From Mytilus edulis (taxonomy: Eukaryota): DNA of 64,000 bases. The stretch is from positions 22,134,001 through 22,198,000 of the forward strand of contig NC_092344.1 in NCBI RefSeq assembly GCF_963676685.1, in the 5' to 3' direction. Shown here in pieces: positions 3,001-30,000 of the stretch (the stretch's first letter is position 1; each line of letters starts with the position of its first letter). Position numbers: made by a program.

Positions 3001-6000
3001 GACAACAACCCGACAATAGAGAAGACAACAGCAGAAGGTCACCAACAGGTCTTCAATGCAGCGAGAAATTCCCGCACCCGGAGGCGTCCTTCAGCTGGCC
3101 CCTAAACAAATATATATATACTAGTTCAGTGATAATGAACGCCATACTAAACTCCAAATTTTACACAAGAAACTAAAATTAGAAATAAAACAAGACATAC
3201 AAAGGCCAGAGGTTCCTGACTTGGGACAGGCGCAGAAATGCGGCGGGGTTAATACATATTGTTTGCAAGCCTATCAAGTAAAATATATTGATCATTAATA
3301 ATATTTCGTGTTTTTTTCTCAAAACGAATTCATAATACCACAATACAGGAAGAACCAAATATATCGGACTGTAAAAAAATCCTTAACCATGCAACTAGAA
3401 GCATCCGGCTCCTCCATACAAAAATAGACACATTAAAACGTTTAAACCCGCTGCATTTGTTTGCACCTGTCTTAAGTCGGGAACATGTTGTTCAGTGGTA
3501 TTCGTTTGTTGATGTGGTTCATAAGTATTTATCGTTTTTCGTATATACTAGACCATTGGCTTTCCTGTTTGAATGGTTTAACACTAGTGATCTTGGGGAC
3601 CTCTATAGGTGTGAATCAAGGCTCCGCGTTGAAGGCTTGCTTTGACCTGTTATGATTTACTTTCAACAAATTGTGACTTAGATGGAGACTTGTCTCATTG
3701 GCACTCATATCATATTTTCTCATTTCTCTGACATAAACAAAAACTAAAAAGCAAATATCACATGACCAAGATAGACTGACTTGGTACAAACACACACTGT
3801 GATACACTGGTGACACTGAATGTTACACAAAATAAAGCATCTTTTCTTTTTCTGTGAACATGTTTAATAAATATTGGCCGTAAGTTTTGCTGTTTCATAC
3901 TCGTTTCAACTACATTTATCTCATCCTGTTTCTTCGCTGTTGTGCGCTTTCTGCATACAGTATAATAAAGAACAGGAAGCTATATAAAACCATATATGGA
4001 AAAAATCCGTTCGCTATTATCATTATGGAAAATGTATATCCGCACCAAATTAATGCCATTACAGACCGACTCCGGCATTCAAATATTCCCAACAAAGTTT
4101 CTTGGATTTCATAGATCCAATTTCGGAAAATTTCTACAAATCCAACAAACATCGGTCTGCGCTGCTGTCGATTCCAGACAACCAAACGATCCAAGTTGTC
4201 CATCAGATCACTGTTTGAAGAAGTGTCCGAAAAAGAGTCTGATTGCTCTGAAAAATCATCACCATTAATTCTTCCATTGAGAGATTCTTCACTTCCATCG
4301 AACTTAGGAAATGAAATGGCGTCGATCCGACAAGGCAGCCGACTATCTTCCTCGACAGAAACATCCAGATCTACTTCCGAAACTGACCTATCGCTTACTT
4401 GTTCCGACATTGAGTCATCGCTTTGTGTAGCAATAGACCGAATAGCTACGTAAGCTTCATCCTGAAACTAAACAAAATAAAACTTTTAATAATTTTCATT
4501 AAAATTCTTTCCTGACTCAATAATTTGGTAAATATTGATTTATCAAGTTGTAGCTATTTCTATAAATTCATATTTGGTCAGAAATTCATACACGATTTCA
4601 TAAAAAAAACTATTATTATTTTAGGATCAACAAACTTTTCTCAAATCTAATTTACTCTAATCTATGAAAAAAATATTTACCAAGAAGCAGAAGCAGTTGG
4701 TTGTAAGTTTTGACGTAAGTTCATTTGTGAAATTGGTTTTTGATTTAAGACTTGACGTAAGTGTGATCTTAGACTTACGATGTTTTGTGAAATTGGCCCC
4801 AGGAAGGAAGGAGGTTCCGGGGAGTTAGAACCTCTTTTACAATCAATGCATTTGAATTGGGACACATGGTTAGAACACATTTTTAATTCGTTCATTTTTT
4901 TGTCCATAAATTAGGCCGTTAGTCATTTCGTTTGAATTGTTTTACATTTGTCATTTCGGGACGGTCATTTCGGAGCCTTATATAGCTTACTAGCCGGTAT
5001 GGGCTTTGTCCATTGTTGAAGGCCGTACGGTGATCTATAGTTGTTAAATTATGTGCAATTTGGTCTCTTGTAGTGAGTTGTCCCATTGGCAATCATACCA
5101 AATCTTCTTTTTTATATTTATTCTGGGTCGGAATCTCCCTTTTAAAAAGGTGGATCTGCCCCTGAGAAGAGGATTTTTAAAAGTCGGATGGGGAGGGGGG
5201 ACACGCGCTCTTATGGAGATACATAAATAATTAATGAATATACCTTATTTATGACCCACTCAAAACGTTAAATAGTTCCCCCCTGTAGACATTGCATTTT
5301 GACGATATCTTAAAAGTGCATTCTATACATTAAGTGTTTTATATATGCTAGTATATATCTATTTCACAAAGTTATAAGTTATTGTGTCTTCGGGAGTATA
5401 CATGTTACCTACATCATTCTTTGATATTCAGAGGTAATGTATCGAGATCTAAATGCAGATGACATTTCATAAAAATCTGATAAATGATTTAATAATTTGA
5501 ATATTAAATTATAGAGAAAAAAAACATTTTTTTTTTTTTTTTAAACATATATATTCATTTATTGCTGACCATTTCTGATTTCCAATAGATTTGTTTTTAT
5601 ATTGACGCCTTTTACTTTATTTGCTGTAAATGTGTCTTACCTTTTTATCTTGTTCACGCCAGTTGTCAACAAAATCTTGAATAGAATAATTGACGTGCAA
5701 TCGCCTGTTCAAAACTGATGAAACTAGTGTCCTTTTTCGACATGTCGGACAAGAAAACTTCAATCTTGGGAATGGACATTGAGGAAGTTGTTCTGTTGTC
5801 AGTCTGGCAAGATTTTTTAGGCAGCTAAAATTGAGAAAGACAATTTGTTTTTGAACATATTGAAGGGAATAAAATATTTCTTTTTTACATATATAGAGAC
5901 AATCCGAACTTGACAAGCAAGTTTATTGGTGACTGTAAGTGCTTGTGGGATTACAAATCCTATAATTTCGTTTCACATATTTGTTATAATGAGCATTTAT

Positions 6001-27000: not shown

Positions 27001-30000
27001 AAATCTAAATATTTTGACACACTATCAATACATCCAAACCAACACTTTTTATTCTAAAGTAAAAGGGGAATAATATGCAGTTTTGTAATAGTACGGAAAT
27101 GACAGAAAGAGGTACTTTTTTTGTCAAACGTTTAAAGAATGAAAATAAAGATTGAATTAGGTATTTACAAATATTACACTTTTTGAAAAACACTTATTCA
27201 AAGTAATTTTCGAGTATTGTAACTTACTTGAGACAGAATGTATGACCGCAAGGCAAAACTGTCGGTAGGTTGTAATATTCCCAACATATTCCACATTTCA
27301 GCAAATTTACTATATCTTGATTCAGAGTAACCGGGGCTACGTTCGGACGGAGTGAGGGATCCATTTCCGCAATCGAAACAACGCGACTGAAAAAAAAAAT
27401 GCCGTCCGAACAAAACGTCCTTTGTTATGAGTTGGCAACTATCAGCGTCATAGGAGCTCTAAGCGACGCAACAAACCCGGATGTTAGGCAAGATACACGA
27501 GCAAGCTTACGTTTCTAAAAACAATGATGGTGAAAACCATTCAAATACTTTAACTATATATAAAATCAAAATTGAGAATGGAGATGGGGAATGTGTCAAA
27601 GAGACAAAAACCAGACAAAACCCCATGTAACTGTTATATGTGCCACATGTGGAACAGGATCTGCTTTCCCTTTCGGTCAAGTTTTTTTGTAGGATTCTTG
27701 TATCTAAGTCTTTGGTTTTTCTATGTTGTGTCTTGTGTACTGATATTTGTCTATTCATCTTTTTTCCCTTTTTTCCCTTTTTTGCCATTTTCGTTGTCAG
27801 TTATTTTCGATCTACGAGTTTGATTGTCCCTCTGCTATATTTCACCCATCTTTTATAACTATACTAGTCAACAAAAGAAACGATACACGACTTTTTTCAA
27901 ATTAAAGATGAAGTTTTCCGTTTATAGGACCAATATTGAAGGTAGTAATACTTAATGACCATAGAAATATAAATCCGTTTAATAATTTTTTTTTGTTGCT
28001 TTCATGACGTCATTTGGCGAAATTTAACTTTTTTGACAAAATTTACATAAAACGACATTTTTAAAAACATAACTTCCAACTAATGCTGCCAACCTCTCAT
28101 TTAAAGGTAAAGACAATGTTTGCCATCAATTCTTTTTAAAAAATCATACAGTTTGTTCGTTTATTTGTTTTTGACAATAGACAATACTTTATTAATAAAC
28201 CTCAGACACATAGGTGTACACGTATACACATGTTTATACTCAATACATTCAAACTAAACATAATAATGCTACATACATGGTAAAATATAGCAAAATGTCA
28301 ATTTACAAACTACCATAACATTCAACTCAAAACAGACTAACATAAATCACAAGTATCGTATAAGAATTTTTAAAAATATTGCTAAGTTTTTGTAAAGTTC
28401 TACATGACATTTGTAAAGCGAAGTTCAGCCCCACAAAAAAATCGTTAAAACATTATCAATTGATTTACCTGTAGACATGCAGTAGGTGTAAACTTAAAGT
28501 GAATTTAAAAAAAAACGGTAAAAATCTTAAAACTAATCCGAAAGGTTCCAAATTTACAGTGTGTTGTTTCCATATCTTAAGCATTGATTTGAGACGAAGA
28601 TTTTTTTTTGTGCATTTTTTGAGATTTAAAAAAAACACTTTTTTTTACCAAAAATTAACAATATTTCAACCCATTAGTTACATCATGAACTTATCTTGAT
28701 TAGCATATTGGATGATTTTAAACAAATTTGAAAATTCATTTAGTACTGAAAAAATTGTGTGTCGATTTTTTATCCAACTTTCCGAAAAAATAATTTGCAC
28801 CCTATGATCGTTTACACAGAATTTAGTTACTTTTCGACAGGTTTTGATTTTCATTATCATATGTGCCGGCCATACATTGCAAATGAAAGCTTTATAAAAA
28901 AAAAAGTGTATCTAATTTTGTTTTATATTTTAAAATACTTTTTGATAAATTTTATTTCAAAGTCGTGTATCGTTTCTTTTGTTGACTAGTATATGTGCAG
29001 ATAAGTAGAAAGAATTGGAAAACAAAAAGATACGGGTCTGCAATTAATGATTTAAGGATACTATACATAGAAGAAATAAAAAGAAAGGAGCTTTTCTATT
29101 AACTTCAAGTCTTGCTCCTCGTCGCGATATAAATAGTCGTGATTTAAAGCATTCATCAATCAATCAATCAAGCAATCAAGCAATCAAGCAATCGATGCCG
29201 TATAGAACCCTTTTTAAGGATTAAATTTACCTCAGAATTATCGGAAATATCAGTGTAATGCAATATCTGACAGAACATAAATTGAATTCTAGTTGATCTG
29301 TAGTTATGTTTGAAATGGATCTAAGATAACTTTACCTTTATAAAAGACTAATACTTTTGTTTTATTAGAATAGTGAATACGTATACCAGGAAAGGTTAAA
29401 AATTCGGATCAAAATTTCTGAAATATGAATGGGTTCGCAATCAGGTTAATTTATCATATAAATGTGTGTCATGCGTCAGTGTTACGATAAGGTGCAGATA
29501 TAGTATACCTGACTTTCTTTCTCGCGCTACTACAGAAATTTAACTTCGGCTAACACGATGTGTGATACTTTTAAAGCGGAATTTAAGCTTAAACATTTCG
29601 GATTTCCATGCTCAAAGCCCGAGGCTTTATATACATGTCAGGTATGTGCTGATTTTTCTCTTAAACTGTTTCTTCCTATATTGTGTGGTATTATTCACCC
29701 ACGTAGTAGATATAATTGTCGTATGAATTTCGTCATTTTGTCATTTAATATATTTGTGCGGTTTGAAAGATGAAATGGGAAAAAAATATTTTTTTAAGAA
29801 AAAAAAAGTATTAGTTCGTTTTAGGATTATATGTTGTTTGTTTTTCAAAGTAGATTTTTTGGTCTTTTGCTTTTTTTTCTTCCTTTTCGCCTTTAATATT
29901 ATTCATATATTTTTTTTATAAAATGGTAGCCAAGTTCTGTAATCACTTGTTTTAAACTGCTCCAAGAAACTCCCACAGTTAATATGACACTGGCAGTGAA

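What the first reader, a model, noticed from the sequence alone, without database searches (positions are those of the whole stretch)
3916..27364. Two B-box-less TRIM-type RING paralogues with identical exon frame but swapped third exons (membrane anchor vs coiled coil)
Seen: the genes at 3916-6167 and 23559-27364 share strand, 3-exon layout, a phase-2 intron inside the RING (after CGH.FC) and a phase-0 intron before the tail. Both have an expanded loop before CPxCR and the post-RING (L/V)HVNY helix motif. Exon 3 is unrelated between them: acidic linker plus hydrophobic C-terminus in one, coiled coil plus N/Q/T-rich tail in the other. Known: the RING plus downstream xNxxL helix resembles TRIM N-termini, which normally continue into B-box and coiled coil; no B-box Cys/His pattern is present here. 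Inference: a lineage-specific modular E3 family in which a RING cassette is re-targeted (membrane vs cytosol) by exchanging the last exon. The ORF track misses exon 1 of both genes in the correct frame.
Basis: partly seen in the sequence, partly recalled or inferred. Interest (0 to 1): 0.68.

Follow-up and report, generated by a model that had tools for sequence, protein, structure and literature searches.

The report
Two neighbouring RING ubiquitin-ligase paralogues
Two nearby genes in what looks like an invertebrate genome encode related RING-type ubiquitin ligases, one ending in a membrane anchor and the other in a long helix with a floppy tail; this is an ordinary kind of gene pair, not a new system.

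Summary
The sequence features are real. Two minus-strand gene models (6167..3916 and 27364..23559) each have three exons with GTAAG donors and AG acceptors. Both have a phase-2 intron splitting the codon just before the sixth RING ligand, and a phase-0 intron 15 or 17 residues after a shared HVNY motif. Exons 1 and 2 are clearly homologous: 0 of 2000 shuffles reached the observed score for either. Exon 1 is a first RING half by Pfam. No B-box exists: 0 of 97 minus-strand ORFs hit the B-box family.

Gene A ends in an acidic unstructured stretch, a helix, a 38-residue hydrophobic helix and an 11-residue basic tail. Gene B ends in a 77-residue helix with six in-register heptads, then a disordered N/Q/T-rich tail.

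The third exons are not wholly unrelated. They share a 16-residue motif (10 of 16 identical), but its significance is marginal (58 of 2000 shuffles).

Best reading: an old duplicate pair of RING-HC E3 ligases, one membrane-anchored and one soluble. They are not TRIMs by definition. A TRIM13/TRIM59 resemblance is recalled only.

Exon swapping, lineage specificity and orthology could not be tested, because the protein databases were closed and the exons were never joined.

The parts
6046..6167 (-). Gene A exon 1: start codon, pre-RING segment and the first RING half (C-x2-C-x11-C-x-H-x2-C). It ends 2 nt into a codon.
   Evidence: Pfam zf-C3HC4_2, zf-RING_UBOX and zf-C3HC4 at E 3e-6 to 4e-6. Best PDB matches are TRIM31, TRIM25 and TRIM21 RINGs.
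5641..5824 (-). Gene A exon 2: sixth ligand Cys, 23-residue loop, CPTCR (5751..5737) and the post-RING LHVNY segment (5700..5686). A phase-0 donor follows.
   Evidence: BLASTP against B exon 2: 11 of 35 identical, E 2e-6. 0 of 2000 shuffles reach the score. Atlas gives generic C3HC4 RING clusters, best score 0.88, a lead only.
3916..4461 (-). Gene A exon 3: acidic, Ser-rich stretch with no predicted structure (4461..~4216), helix (residues 83-127), hydrophobic helix (residues 134-171 = 4062..3949), 11-residue basic tail, TAA.
   Evidence: No Pfam family. ATTAAA lies 48 nt after the stop.
4081..4128 (-). 16-residue motif in gene A exon 3 that is shared with gene B exon 3.
   Evidence: marginal: 58 of 2000 shuffles reach the score. 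It lies at the end of predicted helix 83-127.
27228..27364 (-). Gene B exon 1: start codon, pre-RING segment and the first RING half with the same ligand spacing as A. It ends 2 nt into a codon.
   Evidence: Pfam zf-RING_UBOX E 1.6e-7. PDB best match is the RAD18 RING at E 2.6e-6, then TRIM2.
25520..25718 (-). Gene B exon 2: sixth ligand Cys, 24-residue loop, CPNCR (25642..25628) and the post-RING VHVNY segment (25585..25571). A phase-0 donor follows.
   Evidence: No Pfam hit and no PDB hit.
23559..23996 (-). Gene B exon 3: long helix (residues 3-79 = 23990..23760, six in-register heptads at residues 15-56), then a disordered N/Q/T-rich tail, TAG.
   Evidence: ATTAAA lies 88 nt after the stop. 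Only sub-threshold Pfam hits (Filament, E 0.037).
23913..23960 (-). 16-residue motif in gene B exon 3 that is shared with gene A exon 3.
   Evidence: It lies near the start of the predicted long helix.

Best explanation
These are two old duplicates of one RING-HC (C3HC4) ubiquitin-ligase gene. They lie on the same strand 17.4 kb apart and keep the same three-exon frame.

Each protein would use its N-terminal RING to bind a ubiquitin-charged E2. Both keep the Ile in C-x-I-C, and the Pro and the Arg directly after the last ligand in CPxCR. From recalled knowledge of RING E3 mechanism, these are the E2-contact residues and the 'linchpin' residue. The segments just before and after the RING probably form helices that let the RING pair up, as in TRIM, BRCA1/BARD1 and RAD18 RINGs. 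This is inferred.

The tails set where each protein works:
- Gene A carries an acidic unstructured spacer, a helix and a C-terminal hydrophobic helix with a short basic end. It would sit on the cytosolic face of an organelle membrane as a tail-anchored or hairpin-anchored E3. It would work like TRIM13, TRIM59 or RNF152.
- Gene B has no hydrophobic segment. It carries a heptad-bearing helix, a likely short coiled coil for self-association, and a disordered N/Q/T-rich tail. It would act in the soluble phase.

Shown: the gene structure, the homology of exons 1 and 2, the first RING half, the absence of a B-box, and the hydrophobic and helical character of the tails.

Inferred: expression, E3 activity, dimerisation, membrane insertion, which organelle, and how the tails came to differ.
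For: - Canonical splice sites and matching intron phases.
- Exon 1 and exon 2 homology: 0 of 2000 shuffles reach the score for each. BLASTP gives E 1e-9 and 2e-6.
- Both first exons hit RING families in Pfam and RING structures in the PDB. The alignments run 9-14 residues upstream of the first Cys (RAD18, TRIM2, BRCA1).
- C-x-I-C and CPxCR are read directly.
- The hydrophobic stretch at residues 134-171 of A exon 3 ends 11 residues before the stop; B has none.
- AlphaFold2 without an alignment gives A helices at 83-127 and 132-180 after 82 residues without predicted structure. It gives B one helix at 3-79 with pLDDT 89-97 over residues 11-60, then disorder.
- B has six heptads in one register.
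- There is no DNA-level similarity between the exons of the two loci, so the duplication is old.
- ATTAAA follows both stops.
- No exon overlaps any of the 36 repeat pairs listed that touch either locus, out of 68 found in the window.
Against: - There is no transcript or protein evidence, so the models rest on sequence alone.
- The exons were never joined. The RING was therefore never scored or folded as a whole, and its second half alone has no Pfam or PDB RING hit.
- The structure models were made without alignments. Model A is of low confidence (mean pLDDT 59.8).
- The hydrophobic stretch is 38 residues long with N-G and P in the middle, so a single span and a hairpin cannot be told apart.
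- Gene B's seam of core positions includes Ala and two Arg, and spans only about 45 residues. That is far shorter than TRIM coiled coils (recalled).
- No relative from another genome was seen, so purifying selection and orthology are unknown.
Confidence: 0.62

Rival explanations
1. This is a lineage-specific modular E3 family in which one RING cassette (exons 1-2) is re-targeted by exchanging the whole last exon, using the phase-0 intron as the joint.
For: - A phase-0 intron sits just before the tail in both genes.
- The tails differ in every gross property.
- Over their length they do not align (one search reports only 16 residues).
- No DNA similarity remains.
Against: - The only local match between the third exons is a 16-residue motif that lies in a predicted helix in both. 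This hints at shared descent of part of exon 3, though only marginally (58 of 2000 shuffles; a control pair reached 100 of 2000).
- Only two copies exist in the window, so no 'family' with a catalogue of tails has been seen.
- No donor copy of either tail exists elsewhere in the window.
- Lineage specificity is untested.
Confidence: 0.15
2. The two genes are not sister paralogues. They are members of two different, older RNF lineages. Gene A would be a B-box-less relative of the membrane-anchored TRIM13/TRIM59 class, and gene B would belong to another RING family. The shared introns would be inherited from a much deeper ancestor.
For: - The exon-1 matches between A and B (33 bits) are not much stronger than those to solved RINGs of other families (26-30 bits).
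- A's best PDB matches are TRIMs, while B's best is RAD18.
- TRIM13 and TRIM59 are RING-B-box-coiled-coil-TM proteins (PMC2533329, passages).
- Mollusc annotations carry the names 'Trim59' and 'TRIM13-like' (PMC13280272 and bioRxiv 10.1101/2025.08.18.670794, passages).
- My recollection, from no call, is that TRIM13 and TRIM59 also have a long loop before CPxCR and an x-V-N-[YF] post-RING helix.
Against: - Exon 2 of A matches exon 2 of B (0 of 2000 shuffles) but matches no solved RING.
- Loop lengths (23 and 24 residues) and both intron positions agree.
- The genes lie 17 kb apart on one strand.
- Marin 2012 lists the TRIM13/TRIM59 subfamily as vertebrate only (PMC3503706, Table 1 passage).
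- No TRIM13 or TRIM59 sequence was available to any tool here, so the resemblance is untested.
Confidence: 0.2
3. One or both models are not functional genes. They would be chance ORFs, decayed duplicates, or exons of other transcripts.
For: - There is no expression data.
- The third exons have no family match.
- The Atlas gave no usable hit for A exon 3, with a recognition value of 1988, below the 2300 that the tool says 91 in 100 proteins of known families reach.
Against: - All three exons of both genes are open and in frame across consensus splice sites.
- All eight RING ligands, the E2-contact Ile and the CPxCR are intact in both.
- The ORF lengths are unlikely by chance.
- Polyadenylation-like hexamers follow both stops.
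Confidence: 0.06

Closest known systems
TRIM13 (RFP2) and TRIM59, TRIM class XI / subfamily H: RING-B-box2-coiled coil-TM, ER-membrane E3 ligases
   Same: Gene A has an N-terminal C3HC4 RING, a helical middle part, a hydrophobic anchor at the very C-terminus and no other recognisable domain. [quoted passage not shown] From recall only, they also share a long loop before CPxCR and an x-V-N-[YF] helix after the RING.
   Different: There is no B-box in or near either gene (0 of 97 ORFs). An acidic spacer without predicted structure takes its place in A. Gene B has no anchor at all. The class is listed as vertebrate only (PMC3503706, Table 1 passage). Sequence similarity to TRIM13 and TRIM59 was not tested, because no such sequence was available to the tools.
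'TRIM-like' proteins that have lost part of the RBCC signature (NHLRC1/Malin, RNF207)
   Same: These are RING proteins related to TRIMs but lacking B-boxes. They are explained by duplication followed by domain loss (PMC3503706, discussion passages). The same route could have produced A and B.
   Different: Malin and RNF207 are tied to TRIMs by clear similarity of other domains. Here the only tie is the first RING half.
RNF152-type C-terminally anchored RING E3s
   Same: Small proteins with an N-terminal RING and a C-terminal anchor, facing the cytosol from an organelle membrane (PMC4021871, passage on RNF152). Gene A would work this way.
   Different: No sequence relation was tested. From recall, the RNF152 RING has a different ligand context from the CGHxFC seen here.
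RAD18 and BRCA1/BARD1 RING domains, which dimerise through flanking helices
   Same: RAD18 is the best solved match of B exon 1 (E 2.6e-6), and the alignment starts 9 residues before the first Cys. BRCA1 aligns to A exon 1 from residue 5. Both genes also have a helix-prone segment after the RING.
   Different: There are no UBZ, SAP or BRCT parts (recalled as parts of RAD18 and BRCA1). Only 25-35 residues align. Dimerisation was not tested, because the RING is split over two exons that were not joined.

Membership tests
RING-HC (C3HC4) E3 ubiquitin ligases | First four metal ligands C-x2-C-x(9-39)-C-x(1-3)-H and the fifth Cys (consensus recalled) | tested here: met
   Both first exons read C-x2-C-x11-C-x-H-x2-C. 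Pfam RING families hit at E 1.6e-7 to 4e-6, some above their curated cut-offs.
RING-HC (C3HC4) E3 ubiquitin ligases | Last three ligands C-x(4-48)-C-x2-C, in frame with the first half | tested here: inconclusive
   Read directly: exon 2 opens with Cys and has CPTC (A) or CPNC (B) after 23 or 24 residues, with matching splice phases. The half alone has no Pfam or PDB RING hit; the Atlas gives generic RING clusters at 0.88. The whole domain was not scored, because the exons were not joined.
RING-HC (C3HC4) E3 ubiquitin ligases | E2-dependent ubiquitin transfer | not testable with these tools
   Only the sequence marks are seen: Ile in C-x-I-C, and Pro and Arg in CPxCR. Their roles are recalled.
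TRIM / RBCC family | One or two B-box zinc fingers directly after the RING ('virtually always present', PMC2533329 passage) | tested here: not met
   0 of 97 minus-strand ORFs of >=28 aa in 2500-6400 and 22000-27900 hit the Pfam B-box family, zf-B_box. No Cys/His pattern was found in the first 30 kb. The stretch after the RING holds 1 Cys in A exon 3 residues 1-128.
TRIM / RBCC family | Long coiled coil after the B-box | tested here: inconclusive
   B has a predicted helix at 3-79 with six in-register heptads. A has a helix at 83-127 of low confidence. Both are much shorter than TRIM coiled coils (recalled).
TRIM class XI (TRIM13/TRIM59) | C-terminal transmembrane segment | tested here: met
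   Met for gene A only: hydrophobic stretch at 134-171, best 19-residue Kyte-Doolittle hydropathy mean 1.87, predicted helix. Gene B: not met (maximum 0.04).
TRIM class XI (TRIM13/TRIM59) | Sequence similarity to TRIM13 or TRIM59 above that to other RINGs | not tested
   No TRIM13 or TRIM59 chain appeared in the PDB searches. The protein databases were closed, and recalled sequence may not be typed.
Tail-anchored membrane proteins | A single hydrophobic span close to the C-terminus and no N-terminal signal peptide (definition recalled) | tested here: inconclusive
   In gene A the stretch ends 11 residues before the stop and the N-terminus is a RING. But the stretch is 38 residues long with N-G and P in the middle, so a hairpin is equally possible.

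The most novel reading that the evidence does not exclude
The two genes are invertebrate, B-box-less survivors of the lineage that gave vertebrates TRIM13 and TRIM59. They would work as a pair. The soluble protein B would join the membrane-anchored protein A through the helices that flank their RINGs, or through the motif-bearing helix that both third exons share. This would form a BRCA1/BARD1-style heterodimeric E3 whose place of action is set by one partner's anchor. Swapping or remodelling of the last exon would then be the way this lineage makes new addresses for one catalytic cassette.
Probability: 0.08. Interest if true: 0.55.

Novelty: new member of a known kind. Interest (0 to 1): 0.28.

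Why it matters
If the models are right, the window adds two small RING E3 ligases to a very large and well-understood class. One shows the familiar N-terminal RING plus C-terminal anchor layout of organelle-surface ligases.

The modest point of interest is evolutionary. One catalytic cassette with conserved intron positions carries two very different tails. The RING looks TRIM-like although the defining B-box is missing.

That could inform how TRIM-like ligases lose domains. It could also inform whether the membrane-anchored TRIM13/TRIM59 class is older than vertebrates. Either would need a database-wide comparison that could not be run here.

Bivalve-enriched C3HC4 RING and B-box gene families are already in print (PMC8382680, table passage). 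Extra RING genes in such a genome are therefore expected.

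Tried and rejected
- PDB sequence search with each second-exon peptide. A gave only chance zinc-ribbon and C2H2 hits (best E 0.0047, an archaeal zinc-finger protein), and B gave nothing. The searches were uninformative.
- ESM Atlas with A exon 3 gave no usable hit. With A exon 2 it gave generic RING clusters at 0.88 or less, leads only. 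Both Atlas calls are spent, so B was not searched there.
- Complex prediction with two copies of B exon-3 residues 1-80 gave no verdict (score 0.01, mark 0.32, controls not run). This is evidence neither for nor against self-association.
- A search for a lost anchor or any other copy of A's tail near B: tblastn of A exon 3 against the window found only the 16-residue motif.
- A search for B-box exons in the introns and flanks found none. The ORF 4680-4910(-) in A's intron 2 has a C-x2-H-x5-C-x2-C start but no B-box hit, and it overlaps an interspersed repeat (4875-5121).
- DNA-level comparison of the two loci found only interspersed repeats outside the exons.
- Rfam found 0 families in the window.
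- Fold search was not run. Model A is of low confidence, and model B is a single helix that would match any long helix.
- The genome-contig collection was not searched, because it holds only bacteria and archaea.
- The paper PMC1855009 (Lerner 2007 on RFP2) is not held.
- Paper searches turned up no description of a B-box-less TRIM13/59-like RING pair in molluscs. These were keyword searches of an open-access subset. Supplementary gene lists, which were closed, may bear on this.

Full report
**What was done and what was left out.** The finding was checked on the window itself, which holds no N. The exons were never joined. No whole-protein family scan, structure prediction or search of a joined product was made. 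That leaves the RING domain, which is split by an intron, scored only as two halves. No relative from another genome was seen, so orthology, copy number in the genome and selection stay unchecked.

**Gene models.** Reading the minus strand and checking the borders by script gives these models.
- Gene A: exons 6167..6046, 5824..5641 and 4461..3916.
- Gene B: exons 27364..27228, 25718..25520 and 23996..23559.
- All four donors read GTAAG. All four acceptors are AG after a T-rich run.
- Both start codons have A at -3 and G at +4.
- An in-frame stop lies 7 (A) or 20 (B) codons upstream of the start codon.
- ATTAAA lies 48 nt (A) and 88 nt (B) after the stop.
- Exon lengths give a phase-2 first intron and a phase-0 second intron in both genes.
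- In both genes the first intron splits the second of the two codons that separate the fifth ligand (the last Cys of CGHxFC) from the next Cys. This is the same place in the domain.
- The second intron lies 15 (A) or 17 (B) residues after HVNY.
- Spliced lengths would be 283 and 257 codons, by arithmetic only.
- ORFs as long as the two third exons are expected 0.009 and 0.14 times in the six frames of this AT-rich window.

**Homology of exons 1 and 2.**
- BLASTP of the exon peptides gives 13 of 25 identical, E 1e-9, for exon 1. It gives 11 of 35 identical, E 2e-6, for exon 2.
- In a local-alignment shuffle test, 0 of 2000 shuffles reached the observed score for either pair. Four cross-pair controls were reached by 796, 1386, 100 and 1691 of 2000.
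- In a six-frame search of the window, each gene's exons 1 and 2 find only the other gene (E 6e-7 and 7e-4). The next best hits are at E 0.08 and 0.15. There is no third copy in these 64 kb.
- At the DNA level the two loci share only interspersed repeats outside the exons. The duplication is therefore old.
- The genes are not adjacent. A plus-strand gene with thrombospondin type-1 and chitin-binding domains lies between them.

**What the N-terminal part is.**
- Pfam places both first exons in RING families: zf-RING_UBOX, zf-C3HC4 and zf-C3HC4_2, at E 1.6e-7 to 4e-6.
- Ligand spacing is the same in both: C-x2-C-x11-C-x-H-x2-C.
- Exon 2 opens with the sixth ligand. After 23 (A) or 24 (B) residues it carries CPTCR or CPNCR.
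- Exon 2 alone has no Pfam RING hit and no solved RING match. The Atlas places A exon 2 next to generic C3HC4 clusters at 0.88, which is a lead only.
- In the PDB, A exon 1 matches TRIM RINGs best: 9 of the top 10 are TRIMs, led by TRIM31 at E 4.7e-5.
- B exon 1 matches RAD18 best (E 2.6e-6), then TRIM2. 6 of its top 10 are TRIMs.
- Solved RINGs are rich in TRIMs, so this is weak typing.
- Several alignments start 9-14 residues before the first Cys. This fits a pre-RING helix like those that, from recalled structural work, pair with a post-RING helix to dimerise TRIM, BRCA1/BARD1 and RAD18 RINGs.
- Both genes keep Ile in C-x-I-C, and Pro and Arg in CPxCR. I recall these as E2-contact and linchpin positions. 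On that basis I take both for active E3 ligases, as an inference.

**No B-box.** Of 647 minus-strand ORFs of 28 residues or more in the window, the 97 that lie in 2500-6400 or 22000-27900 were scanned against Pfam. None of the 97 hit the Pfam B-box family (zf-B_box) at E <= 0.1; only the two first exons hit anything zinc-finger-like above noise. A loose Cys/His pattern search of both strands of the first 30 kb found nothing. One intronic ORF (4680-4910) starts with a B-box-like C-x2-H-x5-C-x2-C. It has no family hit, and it overlaps a repeat.

**Gene A's tail.**
- Exon 3 begins with about 90 acidic, Ser-rich residues (23 D/E against 6 K/R). The model gives residues 1-82 no secondary structure and low confidence.
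- A helix follows at 83-127, then a helix at 132-180 with pLDDT 67-84.
- The second helix covers a 38-residue hydrophobic stretch at 134-171. Its best 19-residue Kyte-Doolittle (KD) hydropathy mean is 1.87.
- The protein ends in 11 residues that hold four Arg.
- The stretch has N-G and P in its middle. A single span (tail anchor) and a hairpin are both possible.
- From recalled work on tail-anchored proteins, a moderately hydrophobic span with a basic end can go to mitochondria or peroxisomes rather than the ER. The organelle is open.

**Gene B's tail.**
- Exon 3 has no hydrophobic stretch (maximum 0.04).
- The model is one helix at 3-79, with pLDDT 89-97 over residues 11-60, although no alignment was used.
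- Residues 15-56 keep hydrophobic or small residues in one a/d register for six heptads. This fits a short coiled coil.
- The last 65 residues are predicted disordered. They include a 30-residue block with 10 N/Q and 6 S/T.

**Are the third exons unrelated?** Almost.
- BLASTP finds one ungapped match of 16 residues with 10 identities (E 0.001 for the pair).
- It is the best non-self hit of B exon 3 in the window, but only at E 1.2.
- 58 of 2000 shuffles reach the alignment score. A control pair (A exon 2 against B exon 3) was reached by 100 of 2000. Taken alone, the motif is marginal.
- The motif lies inside a predicted helix in both proteins: at the end of A's first helix and near the start of B's helix.
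- This keeps a simpler history open. One ancestral helix-bearing last exon may have gained an acidic insert and kept or gained an anchor in A, and may have a remodelled 3' part in B. I cannot choose between that and a true exon exchange.

**Comparison with what is known.**
- By the published definition, TRIM proteins carry a B-box, which is 'virtually always present' (PMC2533329, passages read). These genes fail that test and should be filed as RING-finger (RNF) genes.
- TRIM-like proteins that lost B-boxes are known, such as Malin and RNF207 (PMC3503706, passages).
- Gene A's layout is that of TRIM13 and TRIM59 minus the B-box. Those two are listed as R-B2-CC-TM (PMC2533329) and described as having no domain beyond hydrophobic regions. 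RFP2/TRIM13 acts at the ER with VCP and Derlin-1 (PMC4021871, passages).
- Marin lists that subfamily as vertebrate only (PMC3503706, Table 1 passage).
- Oyster and abalone gene lists do carry the names 'Trim59' and 'TRIM13-like' (PMC13280272 and bioRxiv 10.1101/2025.08.18.670794, passages). I could not link those genes to this window, and I did not try to place the window.
- I recall that TRIM13 and TRIM59 also have a long loop before CPxCR and an x-V-N-[YF] helix after the RING. This recollection is a lead, not a test. No such sequence was available to any tool.
- RNF152 is another C-terminally anchored RING E3 (PMC4021871, passage).
- Bivalve-enriched C3HC4 RING and B-box orthogroups are in print (PMC8382680, table passage).

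**Verdict.**
- Supported: two homologous B-box-less RING genes with one membrane-type tail and one helix-plus-disorder tail.
- Not shown: an exon swap, a lineage-specific family, or sister status.

This is a new member of a known kind, of modest interest.

Noticed in passing
window 6377-6748 (+): An open frame head-to-head with gene A, starting about 210 bp from A's start codon, which suggests a shared divergent promoter. It has a weak, below-cut-off HAP1_N coiled-coil hit (E 1.4e-4). It also holds a K-V-T-F motif that I recall as resembling a PP1-docking RVxF site.
   Followed up: partly
window 6155-6313 (-), ATG at 6241: A short upstream ORF of 28 codons in another frame. It would overlap gene A's start codon if it lies in the 5' UTR.
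   Followed up: no
window 27387-27400 (-): A run of T followed by CAG lies 22 nt upstream of gene B's start codon and looks like an acceptor site. Gene B may have an untranslated first exon further upstream.
   Followed up: no
window about 13100-18100 (+): A multi-exon gene between the two RING genes. Of four repeat-like ORFs scanned, three (13531, 14301, 16442) hit the thrombospondin type-1 family TSP_1. The ORF at 15664 looks similar in sequence but gave no Pfam hit at E<=0.001. Two chitin-binding peritrophin-A domains follow (16864, 17793).
   Followed up: partly
window 32876-33631 (+): A single 252-codon open frame that matches the 'rolling stone' (Rost) membrane-protein family, E 7e-18.
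   Followed up: partly
window about 39400-48500 (-): A BTB-BACK-Kelch gene. BTB and BACK lie in one 368-codon exon (47384-48487), with Kelch repeats in at least four further exons. It is another ubiquitin-ligase adaptor type in the same window.
   Followed up: partly
window 53971-56154 (-): A cyclophilin-type peptidyl-prolyl isomerase split over at least two exons (E 4e-25 and 5e-21).
   Followed up: partly
window 24808-25242; copies at 35546-36002 and 37892-38339: An element of about 430-450 bp in gene B's second intron matches the other two places in both orientations (80-92% identity). It is palindromic, in the way of a foldback or MITE-like repeat.
   Followed up: partly
window 22054-23116, 25916-26235 and 60535-62941: A second interspersed or tandemly nested repeat family (75-93% identity). 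It lies just downstream of gene B, in B's first intron, and near the window's end. Further small repeats occur at 2961-3094, 27568-27618 and 54477-54618, and at 3528-3727, 26535-26746 and 57234-57418.
   Followed up: partly
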